This document shows, in pieces, positions 23,774 through 57,506 of a stretch of 64,000 bases of DNA. The DNA is from an uncultured bacterium. Its GTDB lineage: Bacteria; Fidelibacterota; JAANXI01. The stretch is taken from the NCBI GenBank assembly GCA_964413425.1, contig CAYPST010000010.1:5070-69069 (forward strand), read 5' to 3'. The position numbers and the translations under genes were made by a program. The first letter of the stretch is position 1. Every line of letters starts with the position of its first letter. The notes under the pieces were generated by a model. That model saw only the letters and a program-made list of their open reading frames with translations. It made no database searches and had not been told where the DNA came from.

Positions 23774-24156
23774 GACTATTAAGATAACGCAGTCCAGTAT
23801 CGACATGCTCCCTTAGGTGGATCATCTCTCCACCCATCCCGGCCCCGAACACTCTATCCTCCTGGCCCCCTTTCTCTCACCAGAGAAAGGGGGGACGGGG
23901 TGCGGCGCGTTGGGCGCCATTTCGGTCCCCTGTCCACCATCTCCTCGGGACAGACTGAGGAATGAGAGCACGCATGGTTGTGTGGGCCGCATGAGGGACT
24001 GCAGCCCGCCTCCCCCTCTCATGGGCTGCGGAAGATGGGGGAAGGGATCCAGGAGAGGGGGACCGAGGGGGGGGGAGTGCTCGCCGCTCCGCCAAGTCAG
24101 CCGTCCGGCCGAAGGAACGCAACCAGCTCGCTCTTTCCTGAGTTAACTTAATAGTC
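23774..24156. mobile_element. MITE-1 copy (383 bp) with terminal inverted repeats GACTATTAAG/CTTAATAGTC and flanking ATATAA duplication
   Basis: Homologous to 43064-43313. ATATAA is present at 23768-23773 and again at 24157-24162. GC-rich interior with hairpins (CTTTCTCTC..GAGAGAAAG). Confidence 0.6.
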
Positions 24157-24359
24157 ATATAAACATAAGCCAAGTTCACCAACTTGTATCCGACGCATGT
24201 TTTCTAAATAGGCTCATAGTACAGACATCATGTCCCGGGGCAGTACTGTTGAATTAATAACGAAGCAATCTGCAATGGAAGTAAAAGAAAAAGCCGGGTA
24301 TGGAAGAACCCGGCTTCCAGGATGACCTCTTGCGACAACAGGATAACTCGGCCTGGTGA

Positions 24360-25102: not shown

Positions 25103-25282
25103 CCCAAATTGAGCGATTTATTTCCATAAATCGCTCAACCGACAAAGAAAATGTACGTGTTCACCTCCCCGAAAACGGCGTCGGGACGTTTCGCACCCAT
25201 TCGGTGAAAACACACATTTTCTCAGTCGGGGTTATACCTAAGTACAGCGATACTTCGCGAAGCTCGTATCGCTCAACTTAGG
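25103..25282. mobile_element. MITE-2 copy (180 bp): TIR CCCAAATTGAGCGAT / ATCGCTCAACTTAGG, 5-bp TTCAA target duplication
   Basis: Reverse complement is about 90% identical to 43314-43514. TTCAA at 25098-25102 and 25283-25287. Internal palindrome TTGAGCGATTTAT-ttcc-ATAAATCGCTCAA. Confidence 0.6.
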
Positions 25283-34773: not shown

Positions 34774-34975
34774 GAGTCTGTTTAGAAAACGCAGAGATCG
34801 AGTCTATATAGAAAACGCCTCGCCCCGAAGGGATGCTCCGAAGTCCCAGAAGGTCCGAGGCCTTTGGCAAAGAGATCCCGTGACGACGGGACAAAGAAAC
34901 TACAACATATATCTGTCCAAATCGCGGACTAAAGTATGCAGATATTTTGTACACATAATACCTATACGTCAGGTG
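34774..34975. repeat. R1 repeat copy 2 (with internal partial duplication of its 5' 19 bp)
   Basis: GAGTCTGTTTAGAAAACGC..GAGTCTATATAGAAAACGCCTCGCCCCGAAGGG...ATACCTATACGTCAGGT; lies between TonB (-) and the hybrid kinase (+). Confidence 0.5.
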
Positions 34976-35582
34976 CATTATTATCTCTTTGTGCTCCTTG
35001 CGTTCCCGGCGAACTCTACATTTTCTCACTAGACTCAATGCTATCGAATCGTTGGAACCGCTCACCACTGGTATTGCAGAGTATAGGATAGTTTTCTGAG
35101 TTGACGAACGCAATAAAAATGTGCACCACCCCGGGCTTTATCAGACGGAATTCTCTTCTTGCAGCTCTGCCTGTATCAAAGAACCGGGCAAGTAAAAAAT
35201 GTGAACTGGTTCGCCCGGAGACAGACAACATTCCGTGGAGATTTTTCCGGTGAGATGATTTGTCTGGTACTCAGAAAACACATTCTTTTGATGCAGACTC
35301 CCGACATTTTAATTATATTTTCGCATTAGAATTTCACAGCCGGATTGCGTAGTTTCGTTCCTGGGTGTTTGATTTGAGGTATATTAACAGTTGGTTATGT
35401 TTGCAGAACTGAATCATCCATTAAAGAATACCGTTTCCAAGCTCGATTTTACCTTAATAAACTCACAAGAAATTACTGGCTGAAGAAGAGACCAGGTATC
35501 TTCGAAGGAAGCCGGAATGAAAGAATAGATTCGTAATGCTGACAGGAGATTTGACCAATAAATCTATTTAAAGAGGTAAGAG

Positions 35583-38769: not shown

Positions 38770-40383
38770 TCACTCGGTCTTTCCTTGCACAGAGGGGAAC
38801 TGTGAACCCGCACTCTCTTCTTCGGTGACGTACCCCTTCAGATCAGAGATGGTCCGAACACCCAGCTCTTCTGCATGGGATTCTCTCATGAGCAGGGCAT
38901 AGGTATTATTGAATCCCAGGGGACTGAGCCACTCCAGATCATACTGTTTCTCGAATTGAGTCCTGACGTATTCATAGACTTTTTGCCTGTCCTGTAAGAT
39001 GGATTGCGTGGTCTCCTGGTCGGTGTCCAGGAGCACAAGCAGTCCGGTTCCGGTGTATTCGGGATACAGGTCGATTTCGCCGTGGACCAGCGCATCGAAG
39101 CAAATTTTTGTCCCGCCCAGACCGGTTTTCAGGCCAACGGTGAGATCGGTATAGTTTTCGATCAGCCGATAAAAGATATGGGCAAGTATGAACTGTTCGG
39201 TAAAGTTTTTTGATGCCACTATGATATCAGGGGTTCCGGTCCGTTCGATTTCTGTCCGGAAGCCGTGTTCCCGTAAGTAATTTTTTGCCACCGCGGCCGG
39301 CCCCTGCTGATGCTGATCTACCTGGAAATTCAGGTTTCGCATGGTTTCATTGGAAATTGTTCCTGCAATTTTTTCAAGTGCCGTCCGCAGTTGAGGATAC
39401 TTTCGAATGGTCTCACCCCGCACGACAGGTGCGGCCTGATACGGAGGGAAATATTGTCTGTCATCCCGCAGGACGCGAAAATTATAGGCTGTAATACGAC
39501 CATCGGTGGAAAATCCGCTGATAACATCCACCTTTTTATCCCGCAATGCCCGGTACATCAACTGGGGATCGACCTCGACCGTGTTTAACGTCAGGCCATA
39601 ATGTTCCTTCATCCCCTGATATCCGTCGGATCGGGCCATGAATTCAGCCGTAAATCCCGCTTGAAAAGTTTCCGTAAACAGTGGGGGAAGCACCAAAACG
39701 GGTACGACAATGAATAACACGGCGACAGCACCTATGAGAGCCGGCTTGATTATCTGCCGGATCACGGTTTCCAACCGTCCCAGAATGAAGTCAAACAGCA
39801 GTGCCAGTAAAGCGGCAGGGATTGCGCCTGCCAGAATCATGTTCGTGTTATTCAGCGCAATCCCCCGAAAGATGAATTCGCCGAGTCCGCCGGATCCAAT
39901 CAGTGCACAGAGGGTAGCGATCCCGACATTGATAACGGTGGCGGTCCGAATCCCTGCAAAAATAACGGGCAGAGCCAGCGGCAGTTCAACCTTCATAAGA
40001 ATCTGTCTGTCGGCCATCCCCATGCCGCGCGCAGATTCAATAACACTGTCATCCACGTCATTGATTCCGGCATAGGTGTTGCGAACAATAGGGAGCAGGG
40101 CGTACAGAAATAATGCGATAATGGCCGGTGTCGCACCAATGCCGAAAAGCGGGAGGAGGAGGCCCAGAAGGGCCACGCTTGGAATAGTCTGGATGACCCC
40201 GATGCCCCCGATGACGACATCCGACACATTCCGGTGGCGGGTCAGCAGTATTCCTGCCGGAAGGCTGATCACCGTAGCAATGGCCATAGCGAAAAAGGTC
40301 AGACCAATGTGTTCTATTGTCTGCTCGATCAGGTCGGTTTGATGCGCAATGAGAAATTGAAAGATATTTGCCGGAGAGCTCAT
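38770..40383 (-). CDS. glycine betaine/choline-type (OpuC/OpuABC-like) ABC transporter, permease fused to substrate-binding domain
   Basis: N-terminal 6-TM permease with EAA-like loop, C-terminal OpuAC-type SBP. Confidence 0.8.
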   Translation of the reverse strand: MSSPANIFQFLIAHQTDLIEQTIEHIGLTFFAMAIATVISLPAGILLTRHRNVSDVVIGGIGVIQTIPSVALLGLLLPLFGIGATPAIIALFLYALLPIVRNTYAGINDVDDSVIESARGMGMADRQILMKVELPLALPVIFAGIRTATVINVGIATLCALIGSGGLGEFIFRGIALNNTNMILAGAIPAALLALLFDFILGRLETVIRQIIKPALIGAVAVLFIVVPVLVLPPLFTETFQAGFTAEFMARSDGYQGMKEHYGLTLNTVEVDPQLMYRALRDKKVDVISGFSTDGRITAYNFRVLRDDRQYFPPYQAAPVVRGETIRKYPQLRTALEKIAGTISNETMRNLNFQVDQHQQGPAAVAKNYLREHGFRTEIERTGTPDIIVASKNFTEQFILAHIFYRLIENYTDLTVGLKTGLGGTKICFDALVHGEIDLYPEYTGTGLLVLLDTDQETTQSILQDRQKVYEYVRTQFEKQYDLEWLSPLGFNNTYALLMRESHAEELGVRTISDLKGYVTEEESAGSQFPSVQGKTE

Positions 40384-41351
40384 AACTCGATAGTTTGTCT
40401 TACCCTGTAAAAGGCGTTCAAGATCGCCTGGGGAGTGAAGTCAATACCAGCGGATGCCTCATCCCTGATACTAACCACCGGCTGCTCTGCGTCGGCATTT
40501 TCCACCGTTTCCAATGCCTCGTACAGGGACGTATCGCCGGCAAATTCGAAGGACTGATCTGCAGTGGTTTCCTGCGGCTTGAGCTGAGAGACAATATCAT
40601 TGAGCGTCAGGGTTTGCAGTTCCAGCTGCAGTCTGTTTCCTTTTAAAAAGTCCCGTACGAAATCGTTTTTCGGTGCGAAGAGGAGTTCTTTTGGTGTTCC
40701 CAGTTGCTGAACATTGCCCTCATCCATCAGGCAGATAATGTCGCCAAGCTCGAAAGCTTCCATGACATCATGGGTCACCAGGATCATGGTTTTGTCCAGA
40801 AACTGCTCCAGGCGTTTAAATTCAGTGCGGATATCCAGCCGGGTAATAGGATCTAATGCGCCGAAGGGTTCGTCCAATAAAACGATGGGAGGATCGGCGG
40901 CTAAGGCCCGGATCAACCCGATGCGCTGTTGCTGCCCACCGCTCAGTTCATGTGGCATACGCCCGAGGTATTCTTCCGGCGGAAGGCCTACCAGTTCCAT
41001 GAGTTCATGCTGGCGCTGCTGCATCTTTTTTTCATCCCAGTGGAGGAGTTTGGGGACCACTGCGATATTTTCGCCGACCGTATAATGGGGAAACAGCCCG
41101 ATTTCCTGGATGACGTACCCGATATGCTTTCGCAGTTCCACCGGGTTCTGCTGCTGGATTTCTTTCCCCTCGATGCGAATGGAACCCGCGGTTGGTTCAA
41201 TCAGCCGGTTAATCATTTTGAGGGTCGTGGTTTTCCCGCTGCCGCTCGTTCCCAGCAGCACCAGTGTCTCTCCCTGTTCGACGGCAAAGGAAATCCCATC
41301 AACGGCGGTAAACCCATTAAAAGTTTTTTTAAGATGTGAGACGTCTATCAC
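40380..41351 (-). CDS. quaternary-amine ABC transporter ATP-binding protein (OpuCA/ProV-like) with C-terminal extension
   Basis: Walker A GTSGSGKTT, LSGGQQQRIGLIRALA, Walker B, plus an ~80-aa C-terminal regulatory-like tail. 4-bp overlap with the permease gene. Confidence 0.85.
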   Translation of the reverse strand: MIDVSHLKKTFNGFTAVDGISFAVEQGETLVLLGTSGSGKTTTLKMINRLIEPTAGSIRIEGKEIQQQNPVELRKHIGYVIQEIGLFPHYTVGENIAVVPKLLHWDEKKMQQRQHELMELVGLPPEEYLGRMPHELSGGQQQRIGLIRALAADPPIVLLDEPFGALDPITRLDIRTEFKRLEQFLDKTMILVTHDVMEAFELGDIICLMDEGNVQQLGTPKELLFAPKNDFVRDFLKGNRLQLELQTLTLNDIVSQLKPQETTADQSFEFAGDTSLYEALETVENADAEQPVVSIRDEASAGIDFTPQAILNAFYRVRQTIEL

Positions 41352-41360
41352 AGCAGCAGC

Positions 41361-42611
41361 TTATTTATGAATTTGTAGAATCACCAGGAGACTGTGTCCG
41401 CATCCCAGCCCTTGTTGCAAGCCGTGCTCCAGTCCACGGAGAGCGTAGCTCAGCTGGGGCTCAATAATATTTGCTCTCGGATCACCAACCCACATCCAGT
41501 TCGTGCTGGCAATTACCCGGTCGATGGTCATCAAACCGAATTGCAGTTCCTTGGAATACGCCGTCCAGTCGGACAGATCGTTCAGGGTCATATCGTCGTT
41601 CAATTTCTGTTGAGTGTACTCAACTAAAATATTCCAGCGTTCGATCAAATTCCGAAGAAACGGAGCGGCCACCGGATGCTCCGGTACAATCTCCGGATCG
41701 AGCAGCAGATTCTCTAAGTCTGTCCGGAGATAATCTTCATGCAGAGAATTGAGAAATCGCCTGATCGGAGGGAGCGAAGGATTGTATTCTCCGGTATCCG
41801 TATGCCGGCCAACCAGGATTGAGCGATCTCCCATGTGCGATACCTCAAAAGGAAGATTTTGCTGGGCTGATAGGTCGTTCACAAATTCCCGAATTTCGTC
41901 GCCAGTCCAGAATCGAATGGGAAAATGGTCGATATGCTGATGAATTCCGTTGTCGGTATAGAGATAACTCATCGAGTAATCGCGCATTTTTTCATCTTCC
42001 GTGCTCGCCGTCCAATATCCGGGCCACTCAATAGAATATCGTCCCATGAGATCTAATGTTACGATACTGTCATTATTCCCATGGTGATAGATGTCCGTCA
42101 ATACTCTCCGAAGGCTCTCGGTGTCCAGATGAGAAAGGGAACTGTAGGACGAGAAATAAATATCGAAGGCTGGTTCTGCGGATGAAATGCCGGAGAGCCC
42201 TTGATTTAAGTCGTGTTGCTGAAATTGAACGTGTGGGTTATGCACATAGATTTCCTGCCCTTTCCGAATCATATCCGGGTTGATATCAACACCCAGGTAG
42301 CATTCAATATCCTCTTCCTGTAAAATGTAATTGTATTCAAGCCCTAAGTCAGATTCTTTTGCATTGACTTTCGTCAGGAGTTCGTAACCCTGTCCGCTGC
42401 CGCATCCCAAATCAAGTATCCTGACTTTTTCACCCTGATCCCGCTTTTTTTGCACCAGCGAGCGTAAAAAGGGCCGGATAGTATATCTGGTTAATTGGTC
42501 CTCCCAATAGATGCGGAGATTATCATATTTTCCGGAGAGATTCCCCTCATAGAGATTATAATAGCCATGTTGGACGGCACTTTTATAATTAATAAAACTG
42601 TTTGATTCCAT
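41361..42611 (-). CDS. class I SAM-dependent methyltransferase with long C-terminal extension (416 aa)
   Basis: Motif I ILDLGCGSGQG, post-I acidic residue; about 200 extra C-terminal residues of unknown function. Confidence 0.7.
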   Translation of the reverse strand: MESNSFINYKSAVQHGYYNLYEGNLSGKYDNLRIYWEDQLTRYTIRPFLRSLVQKKRDQGEKVRILDLGCGSGQGYELLTKVNAKESDLGLEYNYILQEEDIECYLGVDINPDMIRKGQEIYVHNPHVQFQQHDLNQGLSGISSAEPAFDIYFSSYSSLSHLDTESLRRVLTDIYHHGNNDSIVTLDLMGRYSIEWPGYWTASTEDEKMRDYSMSYLYTDNGIHQHIDHFPIRFWTGDEIREFVNDLSAQQNLPFEVSHMGDRSILVGRHTDTGEYNPSLPPIRRFLNSLHEDYLRTDLENLLLDPEIVPEHPVAAPFLRNLIERWNILVEYTQQKLNDDMTLNDLSDWTAYSKELQFGLMTIDRVIASTNWMWVGDPRANIIEPQLSYALRGLEHGLQQGLGCGHSLLVILQIHK

Positions 42612-43063
42612 ATCCCGCGCCTCCCATCTATCATTAATTTGTACTTATCACTGAAGCGATTTTTGTTCAAAACGACCATTCTTATGTAATACATTTTTCG
42701 AGAGACAAGTAAACAAGCGACTGCAACCCCTTCCTGAAACGGGAAGGGGATACCTGCGACATCACAGCCACTCAATTCGGAATAGTGTAACGATTGTGAA
42801 TGATTTATTCAATCGATAAGACAACACTATTCAGACGCCAGGATTTCTCTGATTTTCCGAACAAACGAGCAATTGGGCTGCGCTTCACTGTGAATCCGCA
42901 GTCAAACCGTTGTTGTGAAGAGAGGTGAGTGTTCATAGAAGGCCGGTAATGGAGGGGTGTTAGTTCTGCTAATTCTCTGACTTGTTCACTGCTGTCCGCA
43001 TTGAAGTGCAGGTTGAAATCACATTTCAATGATTAACATTCAGTGCGGTAGGTTTTCTTGATC

Positions 43064-43525
43064 ATGACTATTAAGATACCTCAGTACAATAGCGACATGC
43101 TCCTCCGGGTGGACCATCTCTCCACCCATCCCGGCCCCGATCACTCTATCCCCCTTGACCCTCTTTCTCTCGCCAGAGAAAGGGGGGGCGGGCCCCAAGA
43201 GAGGGGGACCGAGGGGGGGAGTGCCCGCTGCTCCGGTCCACCAAATCGGCCCTCCGCCCGGACTGCCTCGTCGGGAGCGCAACCAGCTCGCTCTTTACGG
43301 AGTTAACTTAATACCTAAGTTGAGCGATACGAGTTTCGCGAAGTATCGCTGTACTTAGGGAAAACCCCGCCCTAGAAAATGTGTGTTTTCACCGAATGGG
43401 TGCGGAACGTCCCGACGCCGTTCTCGGGGAGGTGAACACGTATGCCGACGGCATTCTTCGAACATTTTCTTTTGTCGGTTGAGCGATGTATGGAAATAAA
43501 TCGCTCAATTTGGGTTAATAGTCAT
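43064..43525. mobile_element. composite MITE: MITE-1 (TIR ATGACTATTAAG) with MITE-2 (43314-43514) nested inside its right end, flanked by TTAATA duplication
   Basis: Left TIR at 43064-43075, right CTTAATAGTCAT at 43514/43515-43525. TTAATA at 43308-43313 and 43515-43520 brackets the MITE-2 insert. Confidence 0.6.
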
Positions 43526-43530
43526 ATTCT

Positions 43531-44997
43531 CTATTTGAACGGATCCCACCGGGCAACCATACTTTCGTAACCGACCGGGAAATGATCCTGAAATAATTTA
43601 TAATAATACACTTCTTTTGGTGAATTTAATTCAAGGCCGCCTTCGGATTGCCCCTTGTTTTTGTATTCGTCCTCCGAGGTATTATCAGCAGTCAGCTCAT
43701 CCATCAAATCATCCACCCCTGTTCCGCCGGCGAATCGAAGTTTCGGTCGGTTGGCAATTTCATCAGGCAGCCATTTCTTCATTGCCTCCCGGAGAATCCA
43801 CTTCTCGACAGTCCGGGCTTGTTCTTCATCATACCGGGTCTTTAATTCCATGGGTATTTTGTTGCTGAATGCGACCACTGCCGGATCCAGATAAGGCGTG
43901 CGGTAATTCACGGAATTGGCAAGCCAGCCGCGATCCAGTCTGCGTAATGCGGTATTATAGGCAATAGTTACCAGTTTCCGGGCCACCCGTTCTTTTTTTT
44001 CGACATCCGGTATGTCCTCCAGTTCCTGAAAGTATCCGCCGAACAATTCATCGGCACCTTCACCGACCACCACACAATTGGTATAATCAGAAATCATTTT
44101 CGAGGTGTAGAAATTCGCGATGGCTCCGGAAATGCAATCCTCATCAAATGTTTCCATATACCAGACGGCTTCCGGGATCAGACTCTTGATATCGTTGTCA
44201 GTGATTTCATAGATATAGTGCTCTAATCCGAGGTAATCGGCCATGAGTTTGGCATATTTCATATCTTTGCTCGGATATCGCTGGATCGTGGTGCTGAAGA
44301 GTTTCAGATCGGGATTCACAGATTTGGCTACTGCTGCGGATACAGAACTATCCAGTCCACCGCTCAGAGCGACCCCCTGTACTGCTCCATCTGCCATCCG
44401 TTTTTCAACCGCCTTCACAAAAAGCCGTTCCAGGATGTCAGCGGCTTCCTGGGAGCTGTCAAAGTCGGGAAGGTTCGGGGTGTAGCCGTCAAATTGCTGC
44501 AATCCGTCTTTGGTGGAATAATAATGTCCCGGAGGAAGTTCTTCCACAGCCGGGACATGCCCCAGTAATGATTTTGCCTCCGAAGCGAAGTAGAGGGTGC
44601 CATCCCGCTCTTTATATATTAAGGGCCGGGATCCGACATGGTCGCGTACAAGAAGAGTTTGACCCTTATCAATAACGGCGCATGAAAACGAACCATCCAG
44701 GTGTGAAAAACATGCCGGCCCCATTTGCATGTACTGGTCTCTGATAAACTCGGCATTCGTGGTGGTCTCAGAAATGGAATTATAGATATCACCGTCCAGT
44801 AAAACCACAGGGTACTCATCACCTGCTATGGCTGGGGTCGACCGGGGAGAGAGTGTTAATTCACCTGCTGCCACTCCGCCATCCGGCAGGGCCCTGACGG
44901 TGGAATTGTCCGGACCACGATGGCGGATTTTCTCCAGCATGTCTGCGAGCTGCTGTTGTTCGACTTTTTCACCGACGACACCGACGATTGCGCTCAT
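43531..44997 (-). CDS. asparagine synthetase-family protein lacking the N-terminal catalytic Cys (MSAI... instead of MCGI...)
   Basis: Aligns throughout with the neighbouring AsnB. Synthetase domain has the SGGLDSS PP-loop. Position 2 is Ser. Confidence 0.75.
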   Translation of the reverse strand: MSAIVGVVGEKVEQQQLADMLEKIRHRGPDNSTVRALPDGGVAAGELTLSPRSTPAIAGDEYPVVLLDGDIYNSISETTTNAEFIRDQYMQMGPACFSHLDGSFSCAVIDKGQTLLVRDHVGSRPLIYKERDGTLYFASEAKSLLGHVPAVEELPPGHYYSTKDGLQQFDGYTPNLPDFDSSQEAADILERLFVKAVEKRMADGAVQGVALSGGLDSSVSAAVAKSVNPDLKLFSTTIQRYPSKDMKYAKLMADYLGLEHYIYEITDNDIKSLIPEAVWYMETFDEDCISGAIANFYTSKMISDYTNCVVVGEGADELFGGYFQELEDIPDVEKKERVARKLVTIAYNTALRRLDRGWLANSVNYRTPYLDPAVVAFSNKIPMELKTRYDEEQARTVEKWILREAMKKWLPDEIANRPKLRFAGGTGVDDLMDELTADNTSEDEYKNKGQSEGGLELNSPKEVYYYKLFQDHFPVGYESMVARWDPFK

Positions 44998-45035
44998 ATG
45001 CTCCTCCTGTGAAAGTTCAATTCATCAACACATTT

Positions 45036-46631
45036 TCAGTATCCACCACATTGTGAATGCTTCAGTTCACCGTCAACTGTCCCACTCACTTGTTCTCGTT
45101 CTTCTTCAAAATCAAAGCCCGTCCATATTCCTACCGAGTCGAGAATAGAATCCTGCGGGTGGTAGCGCCGGAATATTTGAAAGTAATAGGCGGCTTCTTT
45201 GGAATTGATCTGCGCCTGAGGAGCCGCCTGCTGAAGAGCAGCCAGCTCATCATCACTTATTTCCTCTTCCGCAATCTGTTCACCCAGAGATTCACATCCC
45301 GCTCCCTGAGTATACTGGACCTTACAGCGCCATAAAATGGAATCCGGAAGCAGATCCGTATTTCGGAATGCATGTCGAAGAATCCATTTTTCGATTTTGT
45401 TCTCCTGGTGTTCACGAATTTTCCATTCGGGCGGAATCGCCATGGCCAGGTCTATCATCGCGGTATCAAGAAATGGAACACGCAGCTCAAGACTGAATCG
45501 CATGCCCATACGATCCGCACGTTGCAGGTTAATATTATGGAGCGTGTCGATACACCGCCTGGATTCCTGATTCAGTTCGGATGGTTTCCAATTTTTCATG
45601 TACTGGTATCCTGCAAATATCTCATCTGCCCCTTCTCCGGTTAATACGACTGTCACATATTCGGAAGCCAGTTTGCAGGTGAAATAACAGGGTACGGCAC
45701 ACCGGACCAGAGAGGGGTCGTAACTTTCCAGATACCGGATCACCTGGGGAAGTGCCTGGTAATAATCTGCTTCTGTAAATATTAATTCATGGTGATTCGA
45801 TCCGATATGTTCCGCAACGATTCGCGATGCTTTCAGGTCGTCACTTTCATTGCCGTTCTTGTCTTTCATGCCTACGGCAAACGTGTGGAGATTCGGGATA
45901 TTCCGGGCGGCAATGGCCGCCACCAGGCTGCTGTCCAGGCCGCCGCTGCAAAAGGCGCCAACATGGATTTCAGGATCGGATAACAGCCGCTCGTGCACCG
46001 CGCCAGTAAACGTTTCCCGAATGCTCTCGGCGGCACGGTCGATCTTCCAGTCGCTTCGCTCCCGCAGCGGCGGGACATCATAGTAGCCGATAAATCCCGT
46101 CTCCGGGGAATAATAGTGACCGGCAGGAAATTCATACACCTTATTAACTCCGGCATGTGACATTGCCCCCAGCTCCGAAGAGAAATACAGGTTTTCTCCC
46201 TGATAACCATAATATAACGGTTTAATGCCAACAGGATCTCTCGCAAGGAAAAGGGTCTCTTCGTCAAAGATGGCAAAAGCGTACATGCCTTCCAGACGGT
46301 GGACACATTCATATCCTTCTTCCTCATAGAGGGGTAAAATAACTTCGGTATCCGACTGTGTCTGAAAGGGGTAGAAGTGATCAAATTCCTCTCTGAGCGT
46401 ATGGTGATTATATATTTCCCCGTTGCAGATAAGGCCCCGGGTTCCATCCGGGCCGAGAATTGGCTGATGCCCACCCCGGACATCAACGATAGACAGCCGG
46501 GTGTGTCCGAATGAACCGATACTATTGGTATGAATGCCCCTGTCATCGGGACCGCGATGTCCCATAGCATCTGTCATTCGTCGGATAGTCTGATCATCGG
46601 GTTTGCCGTAACACCCTGCTATTCCACACAT
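45036..46631 (-). CDS. asparagine synthetase (glutamine-hydrolysing) family protein
   Basis: MCGIAG N-terminal nucleophile, GATase-II domain, SGGLDSS PP-loop. Confidence 0.85.
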   Translation of the reverse strand: MCGIAGCYGKPDDQTIRRMTDAMGHRGPDDRGIHTNSIGSFGHTRLSIVDVRGGHQPILGPDGTRGLICNGEIYNHHTLREEFDHFYPFQTQSDTEVILPLYEEEGYECVHRLEGMYAFAIFDEETLFLARDPVGIKPLYYGYQGENLYFSSELGAMSHAGVNKVYEFPAGHYYSPETGFIGYYDVPPLRERSDWKIDRAAESIRETFTGAVHERLLSDPEIHVGAFCSGGLDSSLVAAIAARNIPNLHTFAVGMKDKNGNESDDLKASRIVAEHIGSNHHELIFTEADYYQALPQVIRYLESYDPSLVRCAVPCYFTCKLASEYVTVVLTGEGADEIFAGYQYMKNWKPSELNQESRRCIDTLHNINLQRADRMGMRFSLELRVPFLDTAMIDLAMAIPPEWKIREHQENKIEKWILRHAFRNTDLLPDSILWRCKVQYTQGAGCESLGEQIAEEEISDDELAALQQAAPQAQINSKEAAYYFQIFRRYHPQDSILDSVGIWTGFDFEEEREQVSGTVDGELKHSQCGGY

Positions 46632-46685
46632 ACCAACACCTTGGTTCTCTCAGCTAGTAGTTCCAAAGATTTTGGTTTCGGCACG

Positions 46686-48152
46686 TCATGAAGCAAGAAT
46701 ATCCTTCTTGATACGGTGCACATCAGTGAGATCGAGAGAGCCCTCCAATCGTGTTCCCTGGTAAAGCCAGCCGCTGCGCAATCCGGGCCGGGATGCTCTC
46801 ATAAATTTTGAGCTGCTCCTCCCGGAAGTTACGGCTTCCTGAATTAGTTCGATCTGGGTATTCACCGTCGCAGAAGAGTATTCTTCATGCTCTGCAAGGA
46901 TAAAGTCTATGCGATCCGAAATATTGTGTGCCATTTCTGACTGCATTGTTACATCAAAGAATTCCAGTGCCTTCGTGACCGCTGTCTGAGCCAATTCCCG
47001 GAGGTTGTAATTCGGAGTCTGGTTGAAGAGTCCCTTGACCATCCCGATCACCGAATCATCAATGATATACTGTTCGGGACTCACGGTGAGCACCTGTTCC
47101 AGCATCCCAAGCGCACTGTTAATAAACTGGGCGCCGCTGGCTGTCTCAAAGACCCAGGAGAAAGTTTTTTCGGCCACTGTTTGCGGATTCGGGTCTTTCT
47201 CGTCAGAAACGGCGGCGGTTCCACAGCAGGGAATCCCGTAGAAATAGGTGAGGTCCGTGATCAGCGCGATCCGGCGGATGCTCTCCGGCTGGCACCAGCG
47301 GGGCGACCCGTCGGAATAGAGATCGGAACTGATGGGGATTCCCCGGTAGAAGACCCTGGCTCCGCTTCTCACAAGATTCGCAAGCACCACCGCCGAGAGG
47401 ATTTCCGCATTGACCTGCACAAGTTCACCGATTTCGGAAAGCGGTGCCGTGGTACCTGCCTGGGGACAGCTGGAAATTGACACCGGGATATCGTGCTCGA
47501 TTACCTTCAGAAATTTGTCGATGGTGGGACTCACTAAATTCAGAGGACTCACGGTAAGTGATGCGATAAATGATATCAGTAATGGATCTTGCACGGCGGC
47601 TATAATGTCCGGCAATTTATCTATCCGGACCAAATTGGCCAGATTCATGTGCTTTGTCGTATTCTCCAGCAGAATCCGGGTCTTTGCCAGATCCATCTCC
47701 TCTTCAGGTACGTCCGGTTCCACCGGACGAGTAATGAAGTCCACATTGGGCAATTGCTCACAAATTCGCACGATATCAATGAGATCCCGGGTCGTGGCTT
47801 GTTTTTTCACAAACGCGCCATTTTCATAATGCAGCACATTGAGGGCCTGACCGCCCGTGCCGAAGTAGATCTCCGGGGCATTTACATCTATGGTAACATT
47901 ATGGTTTGAATTTCTTGCGTGAAGATGAATGGTTTTCGCTGTCCGTTGTATAGCCTGCTCCACCATTTCGCGCGGTATTTTGATCCGTTTATTTTCCAGA
48001 GAAGCACCACCATCCAGGAACATTTGGACGGCCCGGTCGCTTTCAACGTGCACGCCTGCTTCGGAAAGCAGCCGGCAGGAACCCTCATGAATCAGCCGGC
48101 AGTTTGCATCGCTGAGAAGTTTCGTTCTTTCAACTGTGAAGCCCTTACCCAT
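46686..48152 (-). CDS. MttB-family (trimethylamine/glycine betaine:corrinoid) methyltransferase paralog 1, non-pyrrolysine
   Basis: 488 aa, uninterrupted (no in-frame TAG). Shares blocks with the other two paralogs (YFGTGG.., IPVSISSCPQAGTTAP, GIPCCGTAAVSD). Confidence 0.8.
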   Translation of the reverse strand: MGKGFTVERTKLLSDANCRLIHEGSCRLLSEAGVHVESDRAVQMFLDGGASLENKRIKIPREMVEQAIQRTAKTIHLHARNSNHNVTIDVNAPEIYFGTGGQALNVLHYENGAFVKKQATTRDLIDIVRICEQLPNVDFITRPVEPDVPEEEMDLAKTRILLENTTKHMNLANLVRIDKLPDIIAAVQDPLLISFIASLTVSPLNLVSPTIDKFLKVIEHDIPVSISSCPQAGTTAPLSEIGELVQVNAEILSAVVLANLVRSGARVFYRGIPISSDLYSDGSPRWCQPESIRRIALITDLTYFYGIPCCGTAAVSDEKDPNPQTVAEKTFSWVFETASGAQFINSALGMLEQVLTVSPEQYIIDDSVIGMVKGLFNQTPNYNLRELAQTAVTKALEFFDVTMQSEMAHNISDRIDFILAEHEEYSSATVNTQIELIQEAVTSGRSSSKFMRASRPGLRSGWLYQGTRLEGSLDLTDVHRIKKDILAS

Positions 48153-48259
48153 AATCTCCTGATTGGCTAATTAAAGGTTATGAAACGGCACACGTACTGT
48201 CGTCAACGTGTAGGCTGCGTGGCAGAGCATTGATCACCAAAGCAGATGCCGGTGTGTAC

Positions 48260-48934
48260 CTATGCCACTGCTTCCAGTTTGTTAATCGCGTCAAATGCAT
48301 CTTCCCCGTACAAATCAGCGCCAATTTGTTTCGCAAAATCCTCCGATGTGGGAGCGCCGCCGATGCACACGAGCACTTCATCCCGGATCCCTTTTTCTTT
48401 GAGCAGGTCAACTACCTCTTCCATATGTCCCATGGTTGTCGTCAGGAGCGCAGAGAGCCCGAGATATTTGGCCCGGGAATTCTCCACAGCTGTTACCACG
48501 TCTTCGGCTTCCACTCCGACTCCCAGGTCCTCCACCTCAAAACCGGAACCACGGAGCAAAGTTGAGACAATATTTTTACCTATATCATGGAGATCGCCTT
48601 CCACGGTGGCGATGATAAATTTCCCGCGGCTGTTGATATCACCTTCAACCAGGAGTGGTTCCAGAATTTTGGTTGCTTCACTGACGCACTCTGCCGCTGC
48701 CAGCATATCGGGAATCAAGTACTCGCCGCTCTCATAGCGCCGGCCGACTTCTTCCATACCGGGACTCACCGCCTCATTTAAAATAGTCGACGGCGCTAAG
48801 GAATCCTCCAGACCTTGCTGCACCAGCTCAATCACACCAGGTTCACCCGCCATATCACCATCAAATCCTTCATCCGCGCTGTCGATGCGTCCATCAATCA
48901 CATTCTTCTTGATTTGTTCCAGGATGTCTGACAT
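48260..48934 (-). CDS. cobalamin-binding corrinoid protein (MtgC/MtbC-like)
   Basis: B12-binding DxHxxG (GDLHDIGKN), SALL, GGA motifs, N-terminal helical cap. Start ATG at 48934 with SD AAGGAGA. Confidence 0.85.
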   Translation of the reverse strand: MSDILEQIKKNVIDGRIDSADEGFDGDMAGEPGVIELVQQGLEDSLAPSTILNEAVSPGMEEVGRRYESGEYLIPDMLAAAECVSEATKILEPLLVEGDINSRGKFIIATVEGDLHDIGKNIVSTLLRGSGFEVEDLGVGVEAEDVVTAVENSRAKYLGLSALLTTTMGHMEEVVDLLKEKGIRDEVLVCIGGAPTSEDFAKQIGADLYGEDAFDAINKLEAVA

Positions 48935-49312
48935 GGGTTCTCCTTTTATTGTTTGATTTGCCTGAGTATTCCAAAAAATCAGCACACAGATTCACACGGA
49001 AAAAAACGGAGGATCGCAGATTATCCACACATCCCAACACCTCGAAGTATATAGGTGCATAAGTACATACGTGTCGGCGATTGTATGGTAAATTAACCAT
49101 GAATTATCGACTCCGGAGTAGTAATGCAGGAAAGAGCGACGCTTGCAGCCTCTATGCACTTATGTCCGTATGTACCCGATGAAGTGCAGGTGTGAGGCCT
49201 CCTTCCTCTTGCCTCTTTACTCATTCCTATTGTTAAATCGCTATTCATCCTTTTTTTCCGTGTTCATCTGTGTGCTATGCTTTTCATCGCAAGAATACTT
49301 CGGATTTGTATG

Positions 49313-50887
49313 TTATTTAAGTTCAAATCTCTCCCTGGGTAACAGACCGGGACACTCAGCAAGTAGTTTGTTTAACACTTCCGGTTCAATTGGTTGTCCG
49401 GGTTGTGCCATAATTTCTTGAAGACGATCCTGTGCTTTGATTAGCACCTGATCTTCCATTTCGTCAGTTTCGAACGGATACGGTGAGGAGACCAATCCCT
49501 TCCTCCGGGCTTTGCGGAAAGATCGTGCGAACAGTTTGGTGGGAGAATCGACCGTGCGTCGAATCCCCTGAACAGCGGTATCGACCTCCTCTTTTCCAAA
49601 GATGGGCTGGCGCAGAATTTCCCGGATAATCCCGAGGTGGGCATCGTCAAGTACTGCCTGTAAAGGCGAAAAGGTGTTCGTTTTTTCCAGCAGGCCAATC
49701 GCATAGTGGATATATTGTGCGCCTGCTGCCGCCACTTCCAGCTGGGAAAAGAGTTTTTCGACAGTGGCCTGTACTCCGGGCACCTTTGCATCACCGACCC
49801 CGGCAGAGGAATAGCAGGGAATACCATAATGGCGGGCCATTTGAATACAATCGACATTATAGTGGATAAATTCCGGTGCGCCGTAGAAATCATGCAGGGT
49901 GTCCTGACGGGCGCGCACCGGCACAGCGCCATATAACACCGGGGTCCCGGGATTGGTAAGCTGCGTCAACGCGATCCCTGCCAGCAGTTCGGCATTAATC
50001 AGAGACACCATCCCTTCTTCCTGGACGGGTGCTGTTGAGCCGCCCTGGGGCGAGCTGGAGATCGCCACCGGAATACCTTGTTCAGCGATCCGAATTAATT
50101 TTTCCGTGGTATCATCCACCATCTGCAACGGGCTCTTTATCACACAGGTGATAAAAGATATAATCGGATTCTGGCGAAGTGCTTCTTCGCCCCCGGCGAT
50201 ACGTTCGGCTAACTGTATGACCGTATCCAGAGATCGGAGATCTTCCAGGCCGGCCTGGACATGTTTGGTCATGTACATTAACGCCGCCATGAACATATTG
50301 ACATCTTTGTTTTCCGGCGTGATGTCCGGGTCCTGGATATTGACATTCCGGATGAAGAAATCCACATGATCTAACGCATTGCACAATTTTGCAGATTGAC
50401 AGAGATGCAGCAGTGAGCCTCGTTCCCTGTGAAAAGCGACACCTTGCTTCTCAATGGACGGCGCATCCTTTTTCACATAAGTCGTTAACTCGGATTGGAG
50501 TATGTGATTGGTTTCCGCGCCGGTCCCGAAATACACCATCGGTTCCGCAGCATTGAGTTGTAAGGTGTTGTCCGGGTTCCGGGCACCGAGCATCACTTCG
50601 GTGGGAACCGTCTCCAGTATCCGGGTGATCACCTCTTCCGGGAAACGAATATTCCAGATCGTTTGATGGGTGCTTTCCTCCCGGACATCGCATCCCGCAT
50701 TCCCATAGATTTCCGCAGCATGAGCGTTGTGGCACACAATCCCGGGATCCGCCAGAATATCCAGCGAGGCCTCATGCAGCATTTGCACCTGATCCTCGTC
50801 GATGCGCACCCGCGGCTGAACCAGGGTACCGGGCCTGACTTTCCGTTCGCTCATGCTTTCCGGGGATGAGGTCACTTTACCTGACAT
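49313..50887 (-). CDS. MttB-family methyltransferase paralog 2, non-pyrrolysine
   Basis: 524 aa; YFGTGAETN, IPVAISSSPQGGSTAP, GIPCYSSAGVGD blocks. Confidence 0.8.
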   Translation of the reverse strand: MSGKVTSSPESMSERKVRPGTLVQPRVRIDEDQVQMLHEASLDILADPGIVCHNAHAAEIYGNAGCDVREESTHQTIWNIRFPEEVITRILETVPTEVMLGARNPDNTLQLNAAEPMVYFGTGAETNHILQSELTTYVKKDAPSIEKQGVAFHRERGSLLHLCQSAKLCNALDHVDFFIRNVNIQDPDITPENKDVNMFMAALMYMTKHVQAGLEDLRSLDTVIQLAERIAGGEEALRQNPIISFITCVIKSPLQMVDDTTEKLIRIAEQGIPVAISSSPQGGSTAPVQEEGMVSLINAELLAGIALTQLTNPGTPVLYGAVPVRARQDTLHDFYGAPEFIHYNVDCIQMARHYGIPCYSSAGVGDAKVPGVQATVEKLFSQLEVAAAGAQYIHYAIGLLEKTNTFSPLQAVLDDAHLGIIREILRQPIFGKEEVDTAVQGIRRTVDSPTKLFARSFRKARRKGLVSSPYPFETDEMEDQVLIKAQDRLQEIMAQPGQPIEPEVLNKLLAECPGLLPRERFELK

Positions 50888-51144
50888 TTCCTATTGTTCC
50901 GGCACGTTTTATAACGGCAACTGAGTTTGCTTCCCGGGCAGAGAGAGGGAAGGGCATCCCTCTCCTTCCGAAGGAGAGGGAAAGAGGGAGGTTATTGTCT
51001 CCCGCTGCTAGTTCCTCCCTTATCGCCACAACGTGAGCGCTCTCGTCTGGCACCTTTGGAATGCACTGAATTATCTTAAAAGCCATCTTTAGTAATTCGT
51101 GTCAATCCGTGTTAATTAGTGGTTCCATTCCTTGTCTACTTACG

Positions 51145-51957
51145 TTACTGCGTAAATAACCCCTGTCTCTCCGCCCGGGAATAATGCCGGCAGTATCGAT
51201 CTTGTCCGGCGAACAGTTCCCCCAGCAGTATGGCTCTTTGAATCTCCGGATCCGTAGGATCACAAATGGCCGAATCGAGTCCGTGTGGGATGGCGTTGAG
51301 AAGAAACGCGGCATTCAGCACGGTTCGGGATCGCAGCCCGAACGAGATGTTCGATACGCCAACCGTTATTCTTGAGTCCGGGAATTCACTTCTGAACCGA
51401 TGCACGGCTTCCAGAGCAACCTTCCCGAACGTATGATCCGAGGAGAGAGGCATCGCCAGGGGATCAAACAGAATATTCTCTGCCGGTATGTCGAACTTTC
51501 CGGCCTCTTCGTGAATTGCCCGGCAATTCTCGATTTTCTCGTCTACTGTCTTGGGCATGGTTTCACCGCCCATGGCCAGTGCAATCATCGGCATGCCTTC
51601 CCGGGCAACCAGCGGTAAGAGTTCCTGTAAAATCCGTTCCTCATTTTTAATGGAGTTCAGAAGCCAGCCCCGGTTTCCGTTAAGATACGCAGCCGCTTTT
51701 TGTATGATCTCCGGCTCTGCAGAATCGATGCTGAATGGTTTGTCCGTGCATTCCAGTGCAATGTCAATTAACCAGGACATGTCAGCGATTTCTTGCCGGG
51801 GATCCCCGCTGCCGGTGCCGGCATTCAGATCGATGTAATCAGCACCTGCTTCATCCTGTGAGGCGATCTGATCGCGTATGACCGCATCATCCCGATTCTT
51901 AATGGCCTCTGCAATGACAGTCCTTGTGGCGTTGACTTTTTCACCGATAACTAGCAT
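51145..51957 (-). CDS. methyltetrahydrofolate:corrinoid methyltransferase (pterin-binding, MtrH/MtgA/AcsE-like)
   Basis: LVIGEKVN N-terminus (IGERIN-like), DLNAG, pterin-binding barrel pattern; 270 aa. Confidence 0.75.
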   Translation of the reverse strand: MLVIGEKVNATRTVIAEAIKNRDDAVIRDQIASQDEAGADYIDLNAGTGSGDPRQEIADMSWLIDIALECTDKPFSIDSAEPEIIQKAAAYLNGNRGWLLNSIKNEERILQELLPLVAREGMPMIALAMGGETMPKTVDEKIENCRAIHEEAGKFDIPAENILFDPLAMPLSSDHTFGKVALEAVHRFRSEFPDSRITVGVSNISFGLRSRTVLNAAFLLNAIPHGLDSAICDPTDPEIQRAILLGELFAGQDRYCRHYSRAERQGLFTQ

Positions 51958-51964
51958 AATCCCC

Positions 51965-53464: not shown

Positions 53465-53470
53465 AGTTCT

Positions 53471-57094: not shown

Positions 57095-57307
57095 GATGTA
57101 TCCCCCTTTGCATCTATTTGCATAACGATGTAAAAATATGCAAAATTAGGGCCAAACCGGTTTATTATATAAAACATCCTAGTAATTGTATTATTAAGGG
57201 AAAATTTTTCCGCACCCGGAAATTTTTTCCTGGTGAATTATTTCGAAAATCCACGGAGAAATGAAGAATATTTAACTATATGCAGGATATTTTAAAATGA
57301 TTTACAT

Positions 57308-57469
57308 GACTATTAAGTCAGTTCAGGAAAGCAATGGTATTGGCAACCTGTATGGTAGAGCGGTTGTCCCGTATCGGGGCATGCTCGTTGTTTCTGTGTC
57401 AATCTGCCTCGAAGAGATCCCGTCGGGATGTGCTATTTTTTATGAATTATCCAGGTTAGCTTAATAGCC
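57308..57469. mobile_element. mini MITE-1-like element (162 bp) with the same TIRs (GACTATTAAG ... CTTAATAGCC) and an internal hairpin plus T-tract
   Basis: TIRs match MITE-1. Interior differs but contains GATCCCGTCGGGATG-TGCTATTTTTT, a terminator-like structure. Right flank ATATTCT is identical to the composite copy. Confidence 0.5.
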
Positions 57470-57506
57470 ATATTCTTTCTTTACCCTGAAGAATCATCTA
57501 GGGATT

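What the first reader, a model, noticed from the sequence alone, without database searches (positions are those of the whole stretch)
43314..43514. MITE-2 nested inside MITE-1, with target-site duplications at both of its loci
A 201-bp element with TIR CCYAARTTGAGCGAT is inserted in the right TIR of the composite MITE-1, flanked by TTAATA on both sides. An independent, opposite-orientation 180-bp copy at 25103-25282 is flanked by TTCAA on both sides. It carries a 13-bp perfect internal palindrome (TTGAGCGATTTAT/ATAAATCGCTCAA) and a second hairpin with a palindromic TTCGCGAA loop. Nested insertion with clean 5-6-bp duplications argues for recent, transposase-mediated mobility of two distinct MITE families in this genome.
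Basis: seen in the sequence. Interest (0 to 1): 0.55.

Follow-up and report, generated by a model that had tools for sequence, protein, structure and literature searches.

The report
Small hairpin-rich transposon nested in another
This is a real 180-200-bp non-coding mobile element, a MITE, caught once inside another repeat and once in a site that a related genome still has empty; it is a previously undescribed family of an ordinary kind.

Summary
Copy A (43314-43514, +, 201 bp) and copy B (25103-25282, -, 180 bp) are 92.8% identical. Both end in CCTAAGTTGAGCGAT / ATCGCTCAATTTGGG, flanked by TTAATA/TTAATA and TTCAA/TTCAA.

Both insertions have an empty site:
- Copy A: two other copies of the MITE-1 end read CTTAATAGTC uninterrupted.
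- Copy B: the orthologous spacer of a related MAG lacks the element and one TTCAA.

The family is large. 73 of 99 fetched loci carry relatives, and every genome-collection relative is in a Bacteroidota assembly. Of 58 bounded copies with both flanks, 29 have a perfect 5-bp duplication with consensus T-N-N-W-A.

Members keep three hairpins through compensatory changes.

It is a non-autonomous cut-and-paste transposon that a DDE transposase moves in trans. The CC ends, 15-bp repeats, 5(-6)-bp duplication and the resemblance to ISEcp1 ends (CCTAAATT/CCTAGATT) point to an IS1380-type parent. No transposase partner was found, so that assignment is inferred.

"Recent" mobility is not shown. The kind is ordinary and the family is undescribed; interest is modest.

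The parts
43314..43514 (+). MITE-2 copy A, 201 bp, nested in MITE-1
   Evidence: family profile hit E=2e-31
43308..43313 (.). Left copy of the target duplication of copy A (TTAATA; probably the 5-bp target TAATA)
   Evidence: a single copy is present in the unoccupied paralogs
43515..43520 (.). Right copy of the target duplication of copy A (TTAATA = an extra T plus TAATA)
   Evidence: family duplication statistics
43314..43328 (+). Left terminal inverted repeat, CCTAAGTTGAGCGAT
   Evidence: nearly invariant in 39 family members
43500..43514 (+). Right terminal inverted repeat, ATCGCTCAATTTGGG (reverse complement CCCAAATTGAGCGAT)
43314..43359 (+). Left hairpin: the left terminal repeat paired with an inner, altered copy of itself (CCTAAGTACAGCGAT on the other strand); the loop holds TTCGCGAA
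   Evidence: kept with compensatory changes across the family (helix 2: 93% of cells paired)
43367..43477 (+). Central long hairpin (AGAAAATGTGTGTTTTCACC ... GGTGAACACGTA..TTTTCT)
   Evidence: compensatory pairs AU/GC, UA/AU and CG/GC across the family
43444..43464 (+). 21-nt segment present only in copy A; it interrupts the central stem (placement uncertain by a few bases)
   Evidence: absent from copy B and from all relatives
43478..43508 (+). Right hairpin: inner TTGAGCGAT paired with the right terminal repeat
   Evidence: D13; helix 8: 89% of cells paired
25103..25282 (-). MITE-2 copy B, 180 bp, in the divergent spacer between a 142-aa gene (24360-24788, -) and a GntP permease gene (25481-26842, +)
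   Evidence: profile hit E=1e-35; absent from the orthologous spacer of L128
25098..25102 (.). Target duplication of copy B, TTCAA
25283..25287 (.). Target duplication of copy B, TTCAA
43066..43523 (+). Host element MITE-1 (ends GACTATTAAG / CTTAATAGTC), interrupted by copy A inside its right end
   Evidence: (D5, D8, D9, D10)
24133..24163 (+). Unoccupied paralogous site: right end of the MITE-1 copy 23774-24156, reading CTTAATAGTC with one TTAATA (24148-24153)
   Evidence: (D9, I4)
57301..57331 (-). Second unoccupied paralogous site: the same 30-bp element end in reverse orientation
   Evidence: (I4)

Best explanation
MITE-2 is a miniature inverted-repeat transposable element: a non-coding, non-autonomous cut-and-paste DNA transposon.

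Proposed mechanism:
- A DDE transposase encoded elsewhere binds the 15-bp terminal repeats (CCYAAR plus the core TTGAGCGAT) and brings the two ends together.
- It joins them to a target cut with a 5-base stagger at T-N-N-W-A sites.
- Repair of the stagger gives the 5-bp duplication. TTCAA at copy B fits this. TAATA plus one extra base at copy A fits it nearly.
- Copy A landed in the AT-rich right end of another small element, MITE-1. Copy B landed in a divergent promoter spacer.

The parent is most likely an IS1380-type insertion sequence (Pfam PF13701, the bacterial relatives of piggyBac). I put that sub-claim at about 0.45.

Each end of the element is itself a hairpin. It is made of the terminal repeat and an inner, altered copy of it, and a third long hairpin sits in the middle.

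Shown: the ends, the duplications, the empty sites, the copy number and the spread of the family.
Inferred: the enzyme, its family, movement in trans, and any role for the hairpins.
For: 1. Two copies are 92.8% identical, in unrelated contexts and opposite orientations, each flanked by a direct repeat.

2. Both copies have an empty site.
- Copy A: the MITE-1 ends at 24133-24163 and 57301-57331 read AACTTAATAGTCAT where the copy at 43066 reads AACTTAATA[201 bp]TTAATAGTCAT.
- Copy B: the orthologous spacer of MAG contig DATFLS010000505.1 lacks it. That contig has the same gene order, and its GntP protein is 93% identical. It reads GACTAT-TCCAT-AACTTTCAGGTGAGGG where the window reads AATTAC-TTCAA-[180 bp]-TTCAA-TTATTTAAAGTGAGAG.

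3. The family is large.
A scan of metagenomes gave 24 more loci.
- A family profile hits 73 of the 99 loci.
- One Bacteroidales MAG (JBBQIQ01) accounts for 25 of the 75 genome-scan loci.

4. Duplication statistics:
- Of 58 bounded elements with both flanks, 29 have a perfect 5-bp duplication and 11 more match at 4 of 5.
- Position 1 is T in 29 of 29, position 5 is A in 28 of 29, and position 4 is A or T in 29 of 29.
- Flanks offset by 3 bases give 2 perfect matches.

5. There is no coding capacity. The longest stop-free stretch is 52-58 codons in the window copies and 26-61 in relatives, with no conserved frame.

6. Leads toward IS1380:
- The ends start with CC and are 15 bp long.
- ISEcp1 ends read from a plasmid are CCTAGATTCTACGTC and CCTAAATTCCACGTG, against CCTAAGTTGAGCGAT and CCCAAATTGAGCGAT here.
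- IS1247 and ISPme1 ends are CCCACATT, CCTGCATT and CCGACATT.
- Those elements are flanked by 5- or 6-bp repeats: TAGAA(G), TGATTT, AGATT, GCATAA.
- IS1247 is listed with a 5-bp duplication in PMC3281130, Table 2.
Against: - No autonomous element with these ends was found.
  - No inverted pair of ends 0.6-4 kb apart encloses a transposase gene in the 75 genome loci checked.
  - No repeated long DNA or repeated protein turned up among the loci.
  - tblastn with four IS1380 transposases is negative on the window and all 99 loci.
  - None of 21 IS1380-encoding viral contigs carries TTGAGCGAT.
- The resemblance to ISEcp1 ends is 9 of 15 bases. That is a lead, not a test.
- The strict T...A target is not seen in the few IS1380 insertions I read.
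- The window holds only two copies, and the rest of its genome could not be read.
- Copy A has a 6-bp flank, which is atypical for the family.
Confidence: 0.85

Rival explanations
1. It is a MITE, but the parent transposase is not IS1380-type. It belongs to another DDE family that gives about 5-bp duplications, such as IS1634 (5-6 bp), ISH3 (4-5 bp), an IS4/IS5-like group, or Tn3 (5 bp; its derivatives are called TIMEs).
For: No partner was found. The T-N-N-W-A target recalls the T-N-A and Y-T-A-R targets of IS5-type enzymes (my own knowledge). Tn3-derived miniature elements also make 5-bp duplications (PMC4133298, listed but not read).
Against: Tn3-family ends are about 38 bp and start GGGG (my own knowledge); these are 15 bp and start CC. 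The first 8 bases match ISEcp1, IS1247 and ISPme1 ends, with shared consensus CCYNNRTT. I could not read the ends of IS1634 or ISH3 members for comparison.
Confidence: 0.4
2. It is a hairpin element moved as single-stranded DNA by an HUH (Y1) transposase, like REP/BIME elements with RAYT or the palindrome-associated derivatives of IS200/IS605.
For: The element has three strong local hairpins. The single-strand fold z-score is -5.3 for copy A and -9.5 for copy B. The hairpins are kept across 39 relatives by compensatory changes: 78% of cells are paired against about 42% in slid controls, and 20 pairs changed on both sides. Forms of 42-46 bp look like REPs.
Against: HUH elements have no terminal inverted repeats and make no target duplication (established knowledge). 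Here 40 of 58 copies have a 4-5 of 5 duplication, and both window copies have empty sites showing one copy of the target. There is no fixed tetra- or pentanucleotide 5' of the element.
Confidence: 0.03
3. It is a structured RNA gene or regulatory element (small RNA, terminator or riboswitch) that was duplicated, not a mobile element.
For: Conserved hairpins with covariation. Both copies are intergenic.
Against: No Rfam family matches even at E up to 1. There is no terminator-like or promoter-like site inside the element. The copies sit in either orientation relative to their neighbours, one inside another repeat. They carry flanking duplications, and a related genome lacks one of them.
Confidence: 0.03
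4. The nested structure is an assembly chimera that joined two repeats.
For: The region is repeat-rich, and MAG assemblies break at repeats. Several family copies lie at contig ends (L010, L026, L043, L056).
Against: A chimeric join would not duplicate TTAATA and then resume MITE-1 exactly where it stopped (GTCAT...). The element occurs intact elsewhere in the window and in dozens of independent assemblies. Nested and tandem insertions of the family are seen elsewhere too, in L022 and L029.
Confidence: 0.01

Closest known systems
IS1380 family insertion sequences (ISEcp1, IS1247, ISPme1, IS1678; transposase Pfam PF13701)
   Same: Ends begin with CC. Terminal repeats are 14-16 bp. The first 8 bases resemble each other: CCTAAGTT and CCCAAATT here, CCTAGATT and CCTAAATT in ISEcp1, CCCACATT in IS1247. 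Duplications are 5 bp and sometimes 6 bp.
   Different: Those are about 1.66-kb elements that encode their own transposase. This one is 180-201 bp and non-coding. No IS1380-type gene with TTGAGCGAT ends was found. The strict T...A target and the terminal hairpins are not features I could see in those elements.
piggyBac (eukaryotic relatives of IS1380; IS1380 is used as the outgroup in PMC10813416)
   Same: CC(C)TA... ends and an AT-rich T...A target; TTAA for piggyBac (my own knowledge).
   Different: piggyBac uses a 4-bp TTAA target and is a eukaryotic element. The resemblance is only suggestive.
Classical bacterial MITEs and structured intergenic repeats (Correia/NEMIS of Neisseria, RUP of Streptococcus, ERIC/IRU of enterobacteria, Nezha of cyanobacteria)
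   Same: Size of 100-200 bp, terminal inverted repeats, intergenic location, strong secondary structure, many copies, nesting.
   Different: Correia and RUP duplicate TA (my own knowledge). These elements duplicate 5 bp at T-N-N-W-A, have different ends, and occur mainly in Bacteroidales/Marinilabiliales-type genomes.
TIMEs, Tn3-derived inverted-repeat miniature elements (PMC4133298)
   Same: Non-autonomous elements with a 5-bp duplication.
   Different: Tn3-type ends are about 38 bp and start GGGG (my own knowledge). Here they are 15 bp and start CC.
REP/BIME elements with RAYT transposases
   Same: The short 42-46-bp palindromic members of this family look like REPs.
   Different: REPs make no duplication and are moved by an HUH enzyme. 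These have inverted terminal repeats and 5-bp duplications.

Membership tests
MITE (miniature inverted-repeat transposable element) | Small size (under about 500 bp) and no transposase gene | tested here: met
   The window copies are 180 and 201 bp. Relatives span 42-233 bp. The longest stop-free stretch is at most 61 codons, with no conserved frame.
MITE (miniature inverted-repeat transposable element) | Terminal inverted repeats | tested here: met
   15-bp ends CCTAAGTTGAGCGAT / CCCAAATTGAGCGAT matching at 13 of 15, nearly invariant in 39 members.
MITE (miniature inverted-repeat transposable element) | Target-site duplication of fixed length | tested here: met
   A perfect 5-bp duplication in 29 of 58 bounded copies and a 4-of-5 match in 11 more, against 2 of 58 in offset controls. 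In the window: TTCAA, and TTAATA.
MITE (miniature inverted-repeat transposable element) | Empty (unoccupied) sites exist | tested here: met
   Paralogous MITE-1 ends at 24133-24163 and 57301-57331. Orthologous spacer in DATFLS010000505.1.
MITE (miniature inverted-repeat transposable element) | Many copies per genome | tested here: inconclusive
   Only 2 copies in the 64-kb window, and the rest of this genome could not be read. Other genomes do carry many: 25 of the 75 loci from the genome scan come from one MAG, JBBQIQ01.
MITE (miniature inverted-repeat transposable element) | An autonomous partner with the same ends | tested here: not met
   None found in the window, in the 99 loci, or in 21 viral contigs that encode an IS1380-type transposase. 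Many accepted MITE families also lack a known partner.
IS1380-derived element | Ends start with CC; inverted repeats of about 15 bp | tested here: met
   Compared with ISEcp1, IS1247, ISPme1 and IS1678 ends read.
IS1380-derived element | Duplication of 4-5 bp (5-6 bp in the examples read here) | tested here: met
   for this family. and PMC3281130 Table 2 for IS1380 members.
IS1380-derived element | End sequence similar to known members | tested here: inconclusive
   9 of 15 bases match the ISEcp1 right end, and the first 8 bases share CCYNNRTT. No control against other families was possible.
IS1380-derived element | A PF13701 transposase that carries or acts on these ends | tested here: not met
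   tblastn with four IS1380 transposases is negative on the window and 99 loci. Viral contigs that encode the enzyme lack the motif. Binding and mobilisation cannot be tested with these tools.
IS200/IS605-derived or REP/RAYT hairpin elements | No terminal inverted repeats, no duplication, insertion next to a fixed short motif | tested here: not met
   Inverted repeats and duplications are present, and the flanks vary apart from T...A.
Tn3-derived miniature elements (TIMEs) | Ends of about 38 bp starting GGGG | tested here: not met
   Ends here are 15 bp and start CC. The Tn3 end features come from my own knowledge.

The most novel reading that the evidence does not exclude
This would be the first described miniature-element family derived from IS1380/piggyBac-type transposons.

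It reaches well beyond one clade. Relatives are in Bacteroidales and Marinilabiliales genomes, in the unclassified lineage of this window, and possibly in Desulfobacca and Gemmatimonadota.

In this reading the ends are themselves 42-46-bp palindromic units that can move alone. That would make them among the smallest duplication-forming mobile DNAs known. The three conserved hairpins would be needed for transposition, for example through recognition of folded or cruciform ends, rather than being a by-product.
Probability: 0.2. Interest if true: 0.55.

Novelty: new member of a known kind. Interest (0 to 1): 0.3.

Why it matters
For annotation, the result labels two intergenic stretches of this window as mobile DNA. 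It also labels hundreds of similar stretches in Bacteroidales-type metagenome genomes. It explains why spacers here are much longer than in relatives: 692 bp against 512 bp upstream of GntP.

For transposon biology, it gives a clean end sequence (CCYAARTTGAGCGAT) and target rule (5 bp, T-N-N-W-A) with which to hunt the cognate enzyme. If the enzyme is IS1380-type, the family offers a natural minimal substrate of 42-46 bp. IS1380-type enzymes include ISEcp1, which mobilises blaCTX-M genes.

The presence/absence difference with a related MAG can also serve as a lineage marker.

Tried and rejected
- Autonomous partner in the 75 genome loci. I paired ends with up to 3 mismatches at 0.6-4 kb. The candidates enclosed ordinary genes: an outer-membrane protein, a rhomboid-like protein and a dihydrolipoamide acyltransferase.
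- All-against-all blastn and blastp of the loci found no repeated long DNA and no multi-copy protein.
- blastn of the element against 72,556 plasmids gave one chance hit.
- A literature search for the end sequences returned only unrelated PCR primers. Searches for MITE plus IS1380 or Bacteroidetes found no description of this family.
- The IS1380 route. I took ISEcp1 from pC15-1a and ran tblastn against plasmids, where no Bacteroidota member surfaced in the listed rows. A profile of four IS1380 transposases against viral contigs gave 21 loci, none with the motif. Against the protein collection, the top 120 hits were all IS1247-like proteobacterial proteins.
- Exact look-ups of four window proteins, and of a 100%-identical database protein from a 70,566-bp NCBI contig that is probably the window's source, returned no DNA. 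I could not read the rest of the genome.
- Rfam at the gathering and E-value thresholds found nothing relevant.
- Promoter and terminator scans found nothing inside the element.
- Aminicenantes contigs syntenic with 38770-54145 carry no copy of MITE-2, MITE-1 or the third repeat.
- I first read the 42-46-bp forms as proof of independently mobile mini-elements. I then saw that deletion between internal direct repeats could produce them in place. Those repeats are TTGAGCGAT, shared by the left end and the right inner arm, and ATCGCT, shared by the left inner arm and the right end. The claim is therefore downgraded.

Full report
**1. The observation**

Copy A occupies 43314-43514 on the + strand and is 201 bp long. 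It starts CCTAAGTTGAGCGAT and ends ATCGCTCAATTTGGG. TTAATA lies at 43308-43313 and again at 43515-43520.

Copy B occupies 25103-25282 in the opposite orientation and is 180 bp long. It has the same ends, with TTCAA at 25098-25102 and 25283-25287.

The repeat finder recovers the pair as two inverted arms of 130 and 51 nt, each 94% complementary. The pairwise alignment gives 167 matches, 13 mismatches and one 21-nt indel. The extra bases are in copy A, at about 43444-43464.

A profile built from the wider family finds exactly these two copies in the 64 kb, at E = 1e-35 and 2e-31.

The 13-bp palindrome is perfect only in copy B. The 5-versus-6-bp duplication is discussed in section 3.

**2. Proof of insertion**

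The host repeat, MITE-1, runs from GACTATTAAG at 43066 to CTTAATAGTC ending at 43523.
- Its paralog at 23774-24156 reads ...GAGTTAACTTAATAGTCATAT... with a single TTAATA.
- A third element end at 57301-57331, in reverse orientation, does the same.
- The interrupted copy reads ...GAGTTAACTTAATA[201 bp]TTAATAGTCATAT....

This is what an insertion with duplication predicts. An assembly join would not produce it.

For copy B, a homology search with the neighbouring GntP permease found a 93%-identical protein on MAG contig DATFLS010000505.1.
- That contig has the same gene order: an MFS gene, a 140-aa gene on the opposite strand, GntP, then a GDSL lipase.
- Its spacer aligns on both sides of the element but lacks the 180 bp and one copy of the pentamer.
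- It reads GACTAT-TCCAT-AACTTTCAGGTGAGGG where the window reads AATTAC-TTCAA-[element]-TTCAA-TTATTTAAAGTGAGAG.

Both window copies therefore have an unoccupied counterpart.

**3. The family**

A scan of JGI metagenomes with the left-hairpin pattern gave 24 loci. The family profile hits 73 of these 99 loci. The genome-collection hits are all in Bacteroidota assemblies: Bacteroidales MAGs, Marinilabilia, Salinivirgaceae and Anaerophaga thermohalophila DSM 12881. One MAG, JBBQIQ01, accounts for 25 of the 75 genome-scan loci.

I delimited 59 elements by their ends, 58 of them with both flanks.
- Lengths cluster at 140-165 bp, with shorter forms of 42-46, 68, 73 and 111 bp and longer ones up to 233 bp.
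- 29 of the 58 have a perfect 5-bp flanking repeat and 11 more match at 4 of 5. Flanks offset by 3 bases give 2 perfect matches.
- Among the perfect ones, position 1 is T in 29 of 29, position 5 is A in 28 of 29, and position 4 is A or T in 29 of 29.
- The commonest pentamers are TTAAA and TAATA.
- None is an exact 6-mer.

The unoccupied MITE-1 end contains TAATA. Copy A is therefore best read as a TAATA insertion with one extra T next to the right end, or as a rare 6-base stagger.

No relative is close to the window copies. The best profile-free score is 58 bits, against 177 bits for the self-match. The window's own lineage is therefore not otherwise sampled.

**4. Anatomy**

Folded as a single strand, the element gives three hairpins, with z-scores of -5.3 (copy A) and -9.5 (copy B).
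- The left hairpin pairs the terminal repeat with an inner copy of itself. In long elements the inner copy nearly always carries a change in the core: TTGAG becomes TAAAG, or TACAG in the window.
- The right hairpin pairs an inner TTGAGCGAT with the right terminal repeat. The inner arm lacks the outer CCYAAR.
- A long central hairpin lies between them.

In an alignment of 39 members the three hairpins are kept. 78% of cells are paired, against 39-45% when partners are slid. Twenty pairs changed on both sides, and 0 of 500 shuffles reach the observed covariation. Examples are UA/AU and UA/CG in the left stem, and AU/GC, UA/AU and CG/GC in the central stem.

These changes separate a few subfamilies, so they represent few events. 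Template-switch repair within quasi-palindromes could maintain pairing without selection (my inference).

The left and right ends differ consistently across the family (CCTAAG against CCCAAA). This probably copies the two ends of the parent element.

**5. The short forms**

Ten elements of 42-46 bp consist of the two terminal repeats and a 12-16-nt loop. Six of them have perfect 5-bp flanks (L014, L018, L019, L049, L061, L064).

They correspond to the left or the right hairpin of the long form with an intact inner end. They may move on their own: MAG DYQV01 has four of them and no long form.

They can also arise in place by deletion between internal direct repeats. TTGAGCGAT occurs in the left end and in the right inner arm. 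ATCGCT occurs in the left inner arm and in the right end. I leave the question open.

**6. What moves it**

Terminal inverted repeats together with a fixed-length duplication indicate a DDE transposase acting in trans. No such gene was found.
- None appeared among the 25 most-matched Pfam families in a scan of the window's 50 largest open reading frames. That output shows only 25 of the 97 families hit, so absence is not proven.
- None is in the 99 loci, tested by tblastn with IS1380 transposases only. The 75 genome loci also hold no end pairs enclosing a transposase gene, and the loci hold no repeated long DNA or protein.
- None of 21 IS1380-encoding viral contigs carries the end motif.

The best lead is the IS1380 family.
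- ISEcp1 ends read from plasmid pC15-1a are CCTAGATTCTACGTC and CCTAAATTCCACGTG.
- IS1247 and ISPme1 ends are CCCACATT, CCTGCATT and CCGACATT.
- The ends here are CCTAAGTT and CCCAAATT.
- Those insertion sequences are about 1.67 kb with 14-16-bp repeats. They are flanked by TAGAA(G), TGATTT, AGATT or GCATAA, that is 5 or 6 bp.
- IS1247 is tabulated with a 5-bp duplication (PMC3281130).
- IS1380 transposases are the bacterial relatives of piggyBac (PMC10813416). piggyBac's CCC... ends and TTAA target (my own knowledge) echo the T...A target seen here.

This is resemblance, not membership. I give the IS1380 parent about 0.45.

**7. Rivals**

- HUH-type single-strand elements (REP/RAYT, IS200/IS605 derivatives) fit the hairpins but not the duplications or the inverted ends.
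- A structured RNA is not supported. Rfam is negative at permissive thresholds, and no terminator-like or promoter-like site lies in the element.
- An assembly chimera is contradicted by the duplication and by the exact resumption of MITE-1.

**8. Host and context**

The window has 50% G+C.

The block 38770-54145 holds MttB-type methyltransferases, corrinoid proteins, two asparagine-synthase-like genes and a glycine-betaine-type ABC transporter. It is colinear with an Aminicenantes MAG contig at 43-71% protein identity.
- There the asparagine-synthase-like gene and the ABC ATPase gene are 141 bp apart.
- In the window they are separated by a methyltransferase gene and the 919-bp spacer that holds MITE-1 and MITE-2.

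The GntP gene's best named relatives are Balneolaceae at about 70%. The lineage is therefore unclassified. Every full-length relative of the element from a named genome is in a Bacteroidota assembly. The metagenome relatives are unassigned.

**9. Verdict**

It is a new family of a well-known kind. "Recent" activity is not shown: the copies differ at 7% of positions, and the related MAG that lacks copy B is only about 79% identical in nucleotide sequence across this region.

The points of more than routine interest are:
- the clean target rule;
- the IS1380-like ends;
- the conserved three-hairpin build;
- the 42-46-bp forms.

Noticed in passing
window 23774-24156, 43066-43523, 57301-57331: MITE-1 has ends GACTATTAAG / CTTAATAGTC. 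There are two copies about 85-93% alike over shared parts, and the second lacks about 137 internal bases. The first is flanked by ATATAA on both sides. A third locus shares only the 30-bp end. The body is G+C-rich with a CTTTCTCTC.CCAGAGAAAG palindrome.
   Followed up: partly
window 23633-23764, 34799-34977, 57506-57659, 27038-27065: A third intergenic repeat family (TGAGTCT.T.TAGAAAACGCCTCGCCCCGAAG...GGGACAAAGAAA...), 73-91% alike. It lies next to MITE-1-type ends at two loci.
   Followed up: no
window 48981-49276: A 37-nt inverted repeat pair (81% complementary) with 222 bp between the arms, in the spacer between a corrinoid-protein gene and an MttB gene. It could be another small element.
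   Followed up: no
L014, L018, L019, L064 (MAG DYQV01); L061, L057, L044 (JBBQIQ01); L065; L049 (Gemmatimonadota MAG): Palindromic elements of 42-46 bp made of the two 15-bp ends and a short loop. Six of ten have perfect 5-bp duplications. They are either independently mobile minimal elements or in-place deletion products between internal direct repeats.
   Followed up: partly
L007 2620-2781, L024 about 4780-4907, L074 about 7490-7622 (Desulfobacca MAG DYEV01): A different element of about 130 bp. It ends in ATCGCTCAATTTRGG and begins CCCGAATTAGGCGAT or CCCAAATGAGGCG. This suggests the same end type is used outside Bacteroidota.
   Followed up: partly
L022 7010-7384; L029 7030-7210; L082/L094 right ends; L099 3113-3345: Tandem and nested insertions within the family. 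Two elements share a TATAA junction, one element sits inside the right hairpin of another, and there are extra inserts of 27-100 bp.
   Followed up: no
window 38770-54145 versus L127 685-14069: Eleven genes are colinear with an Aminicenantes MAG. The window has an extra methyltransferase gene (41361-42611) and the MITE-filled 919-bp spacer between the asparagine-synthase-like gene and the ABC ATPase gene.
   Followed up: partly
window 22940-24359 versus L128 758-972: The spacer between the MFS gene and the 142-aa gene is 1420 bp in the window and 215 bp in the related MAG. The extra DNA includes the third repeat family, MITE-1 and an unsupported 205-codon reading frame (22949-23566).
   Followed up: partly
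window 7126-11132: Two large genes with FG-GAP/VCBS-type repeats (the DxDxDG motif repeated nine times at the DNA level).
   Followed up: no
window 43444-43464: A 21-nt insert specific to copy A (GCCGACGGCATTCTTCGAACA). It contains small palindromes (ATGCCGACGGCAT, TTCGAA), has no obvious duplication, and is of unknown origin.
   Followed up: no
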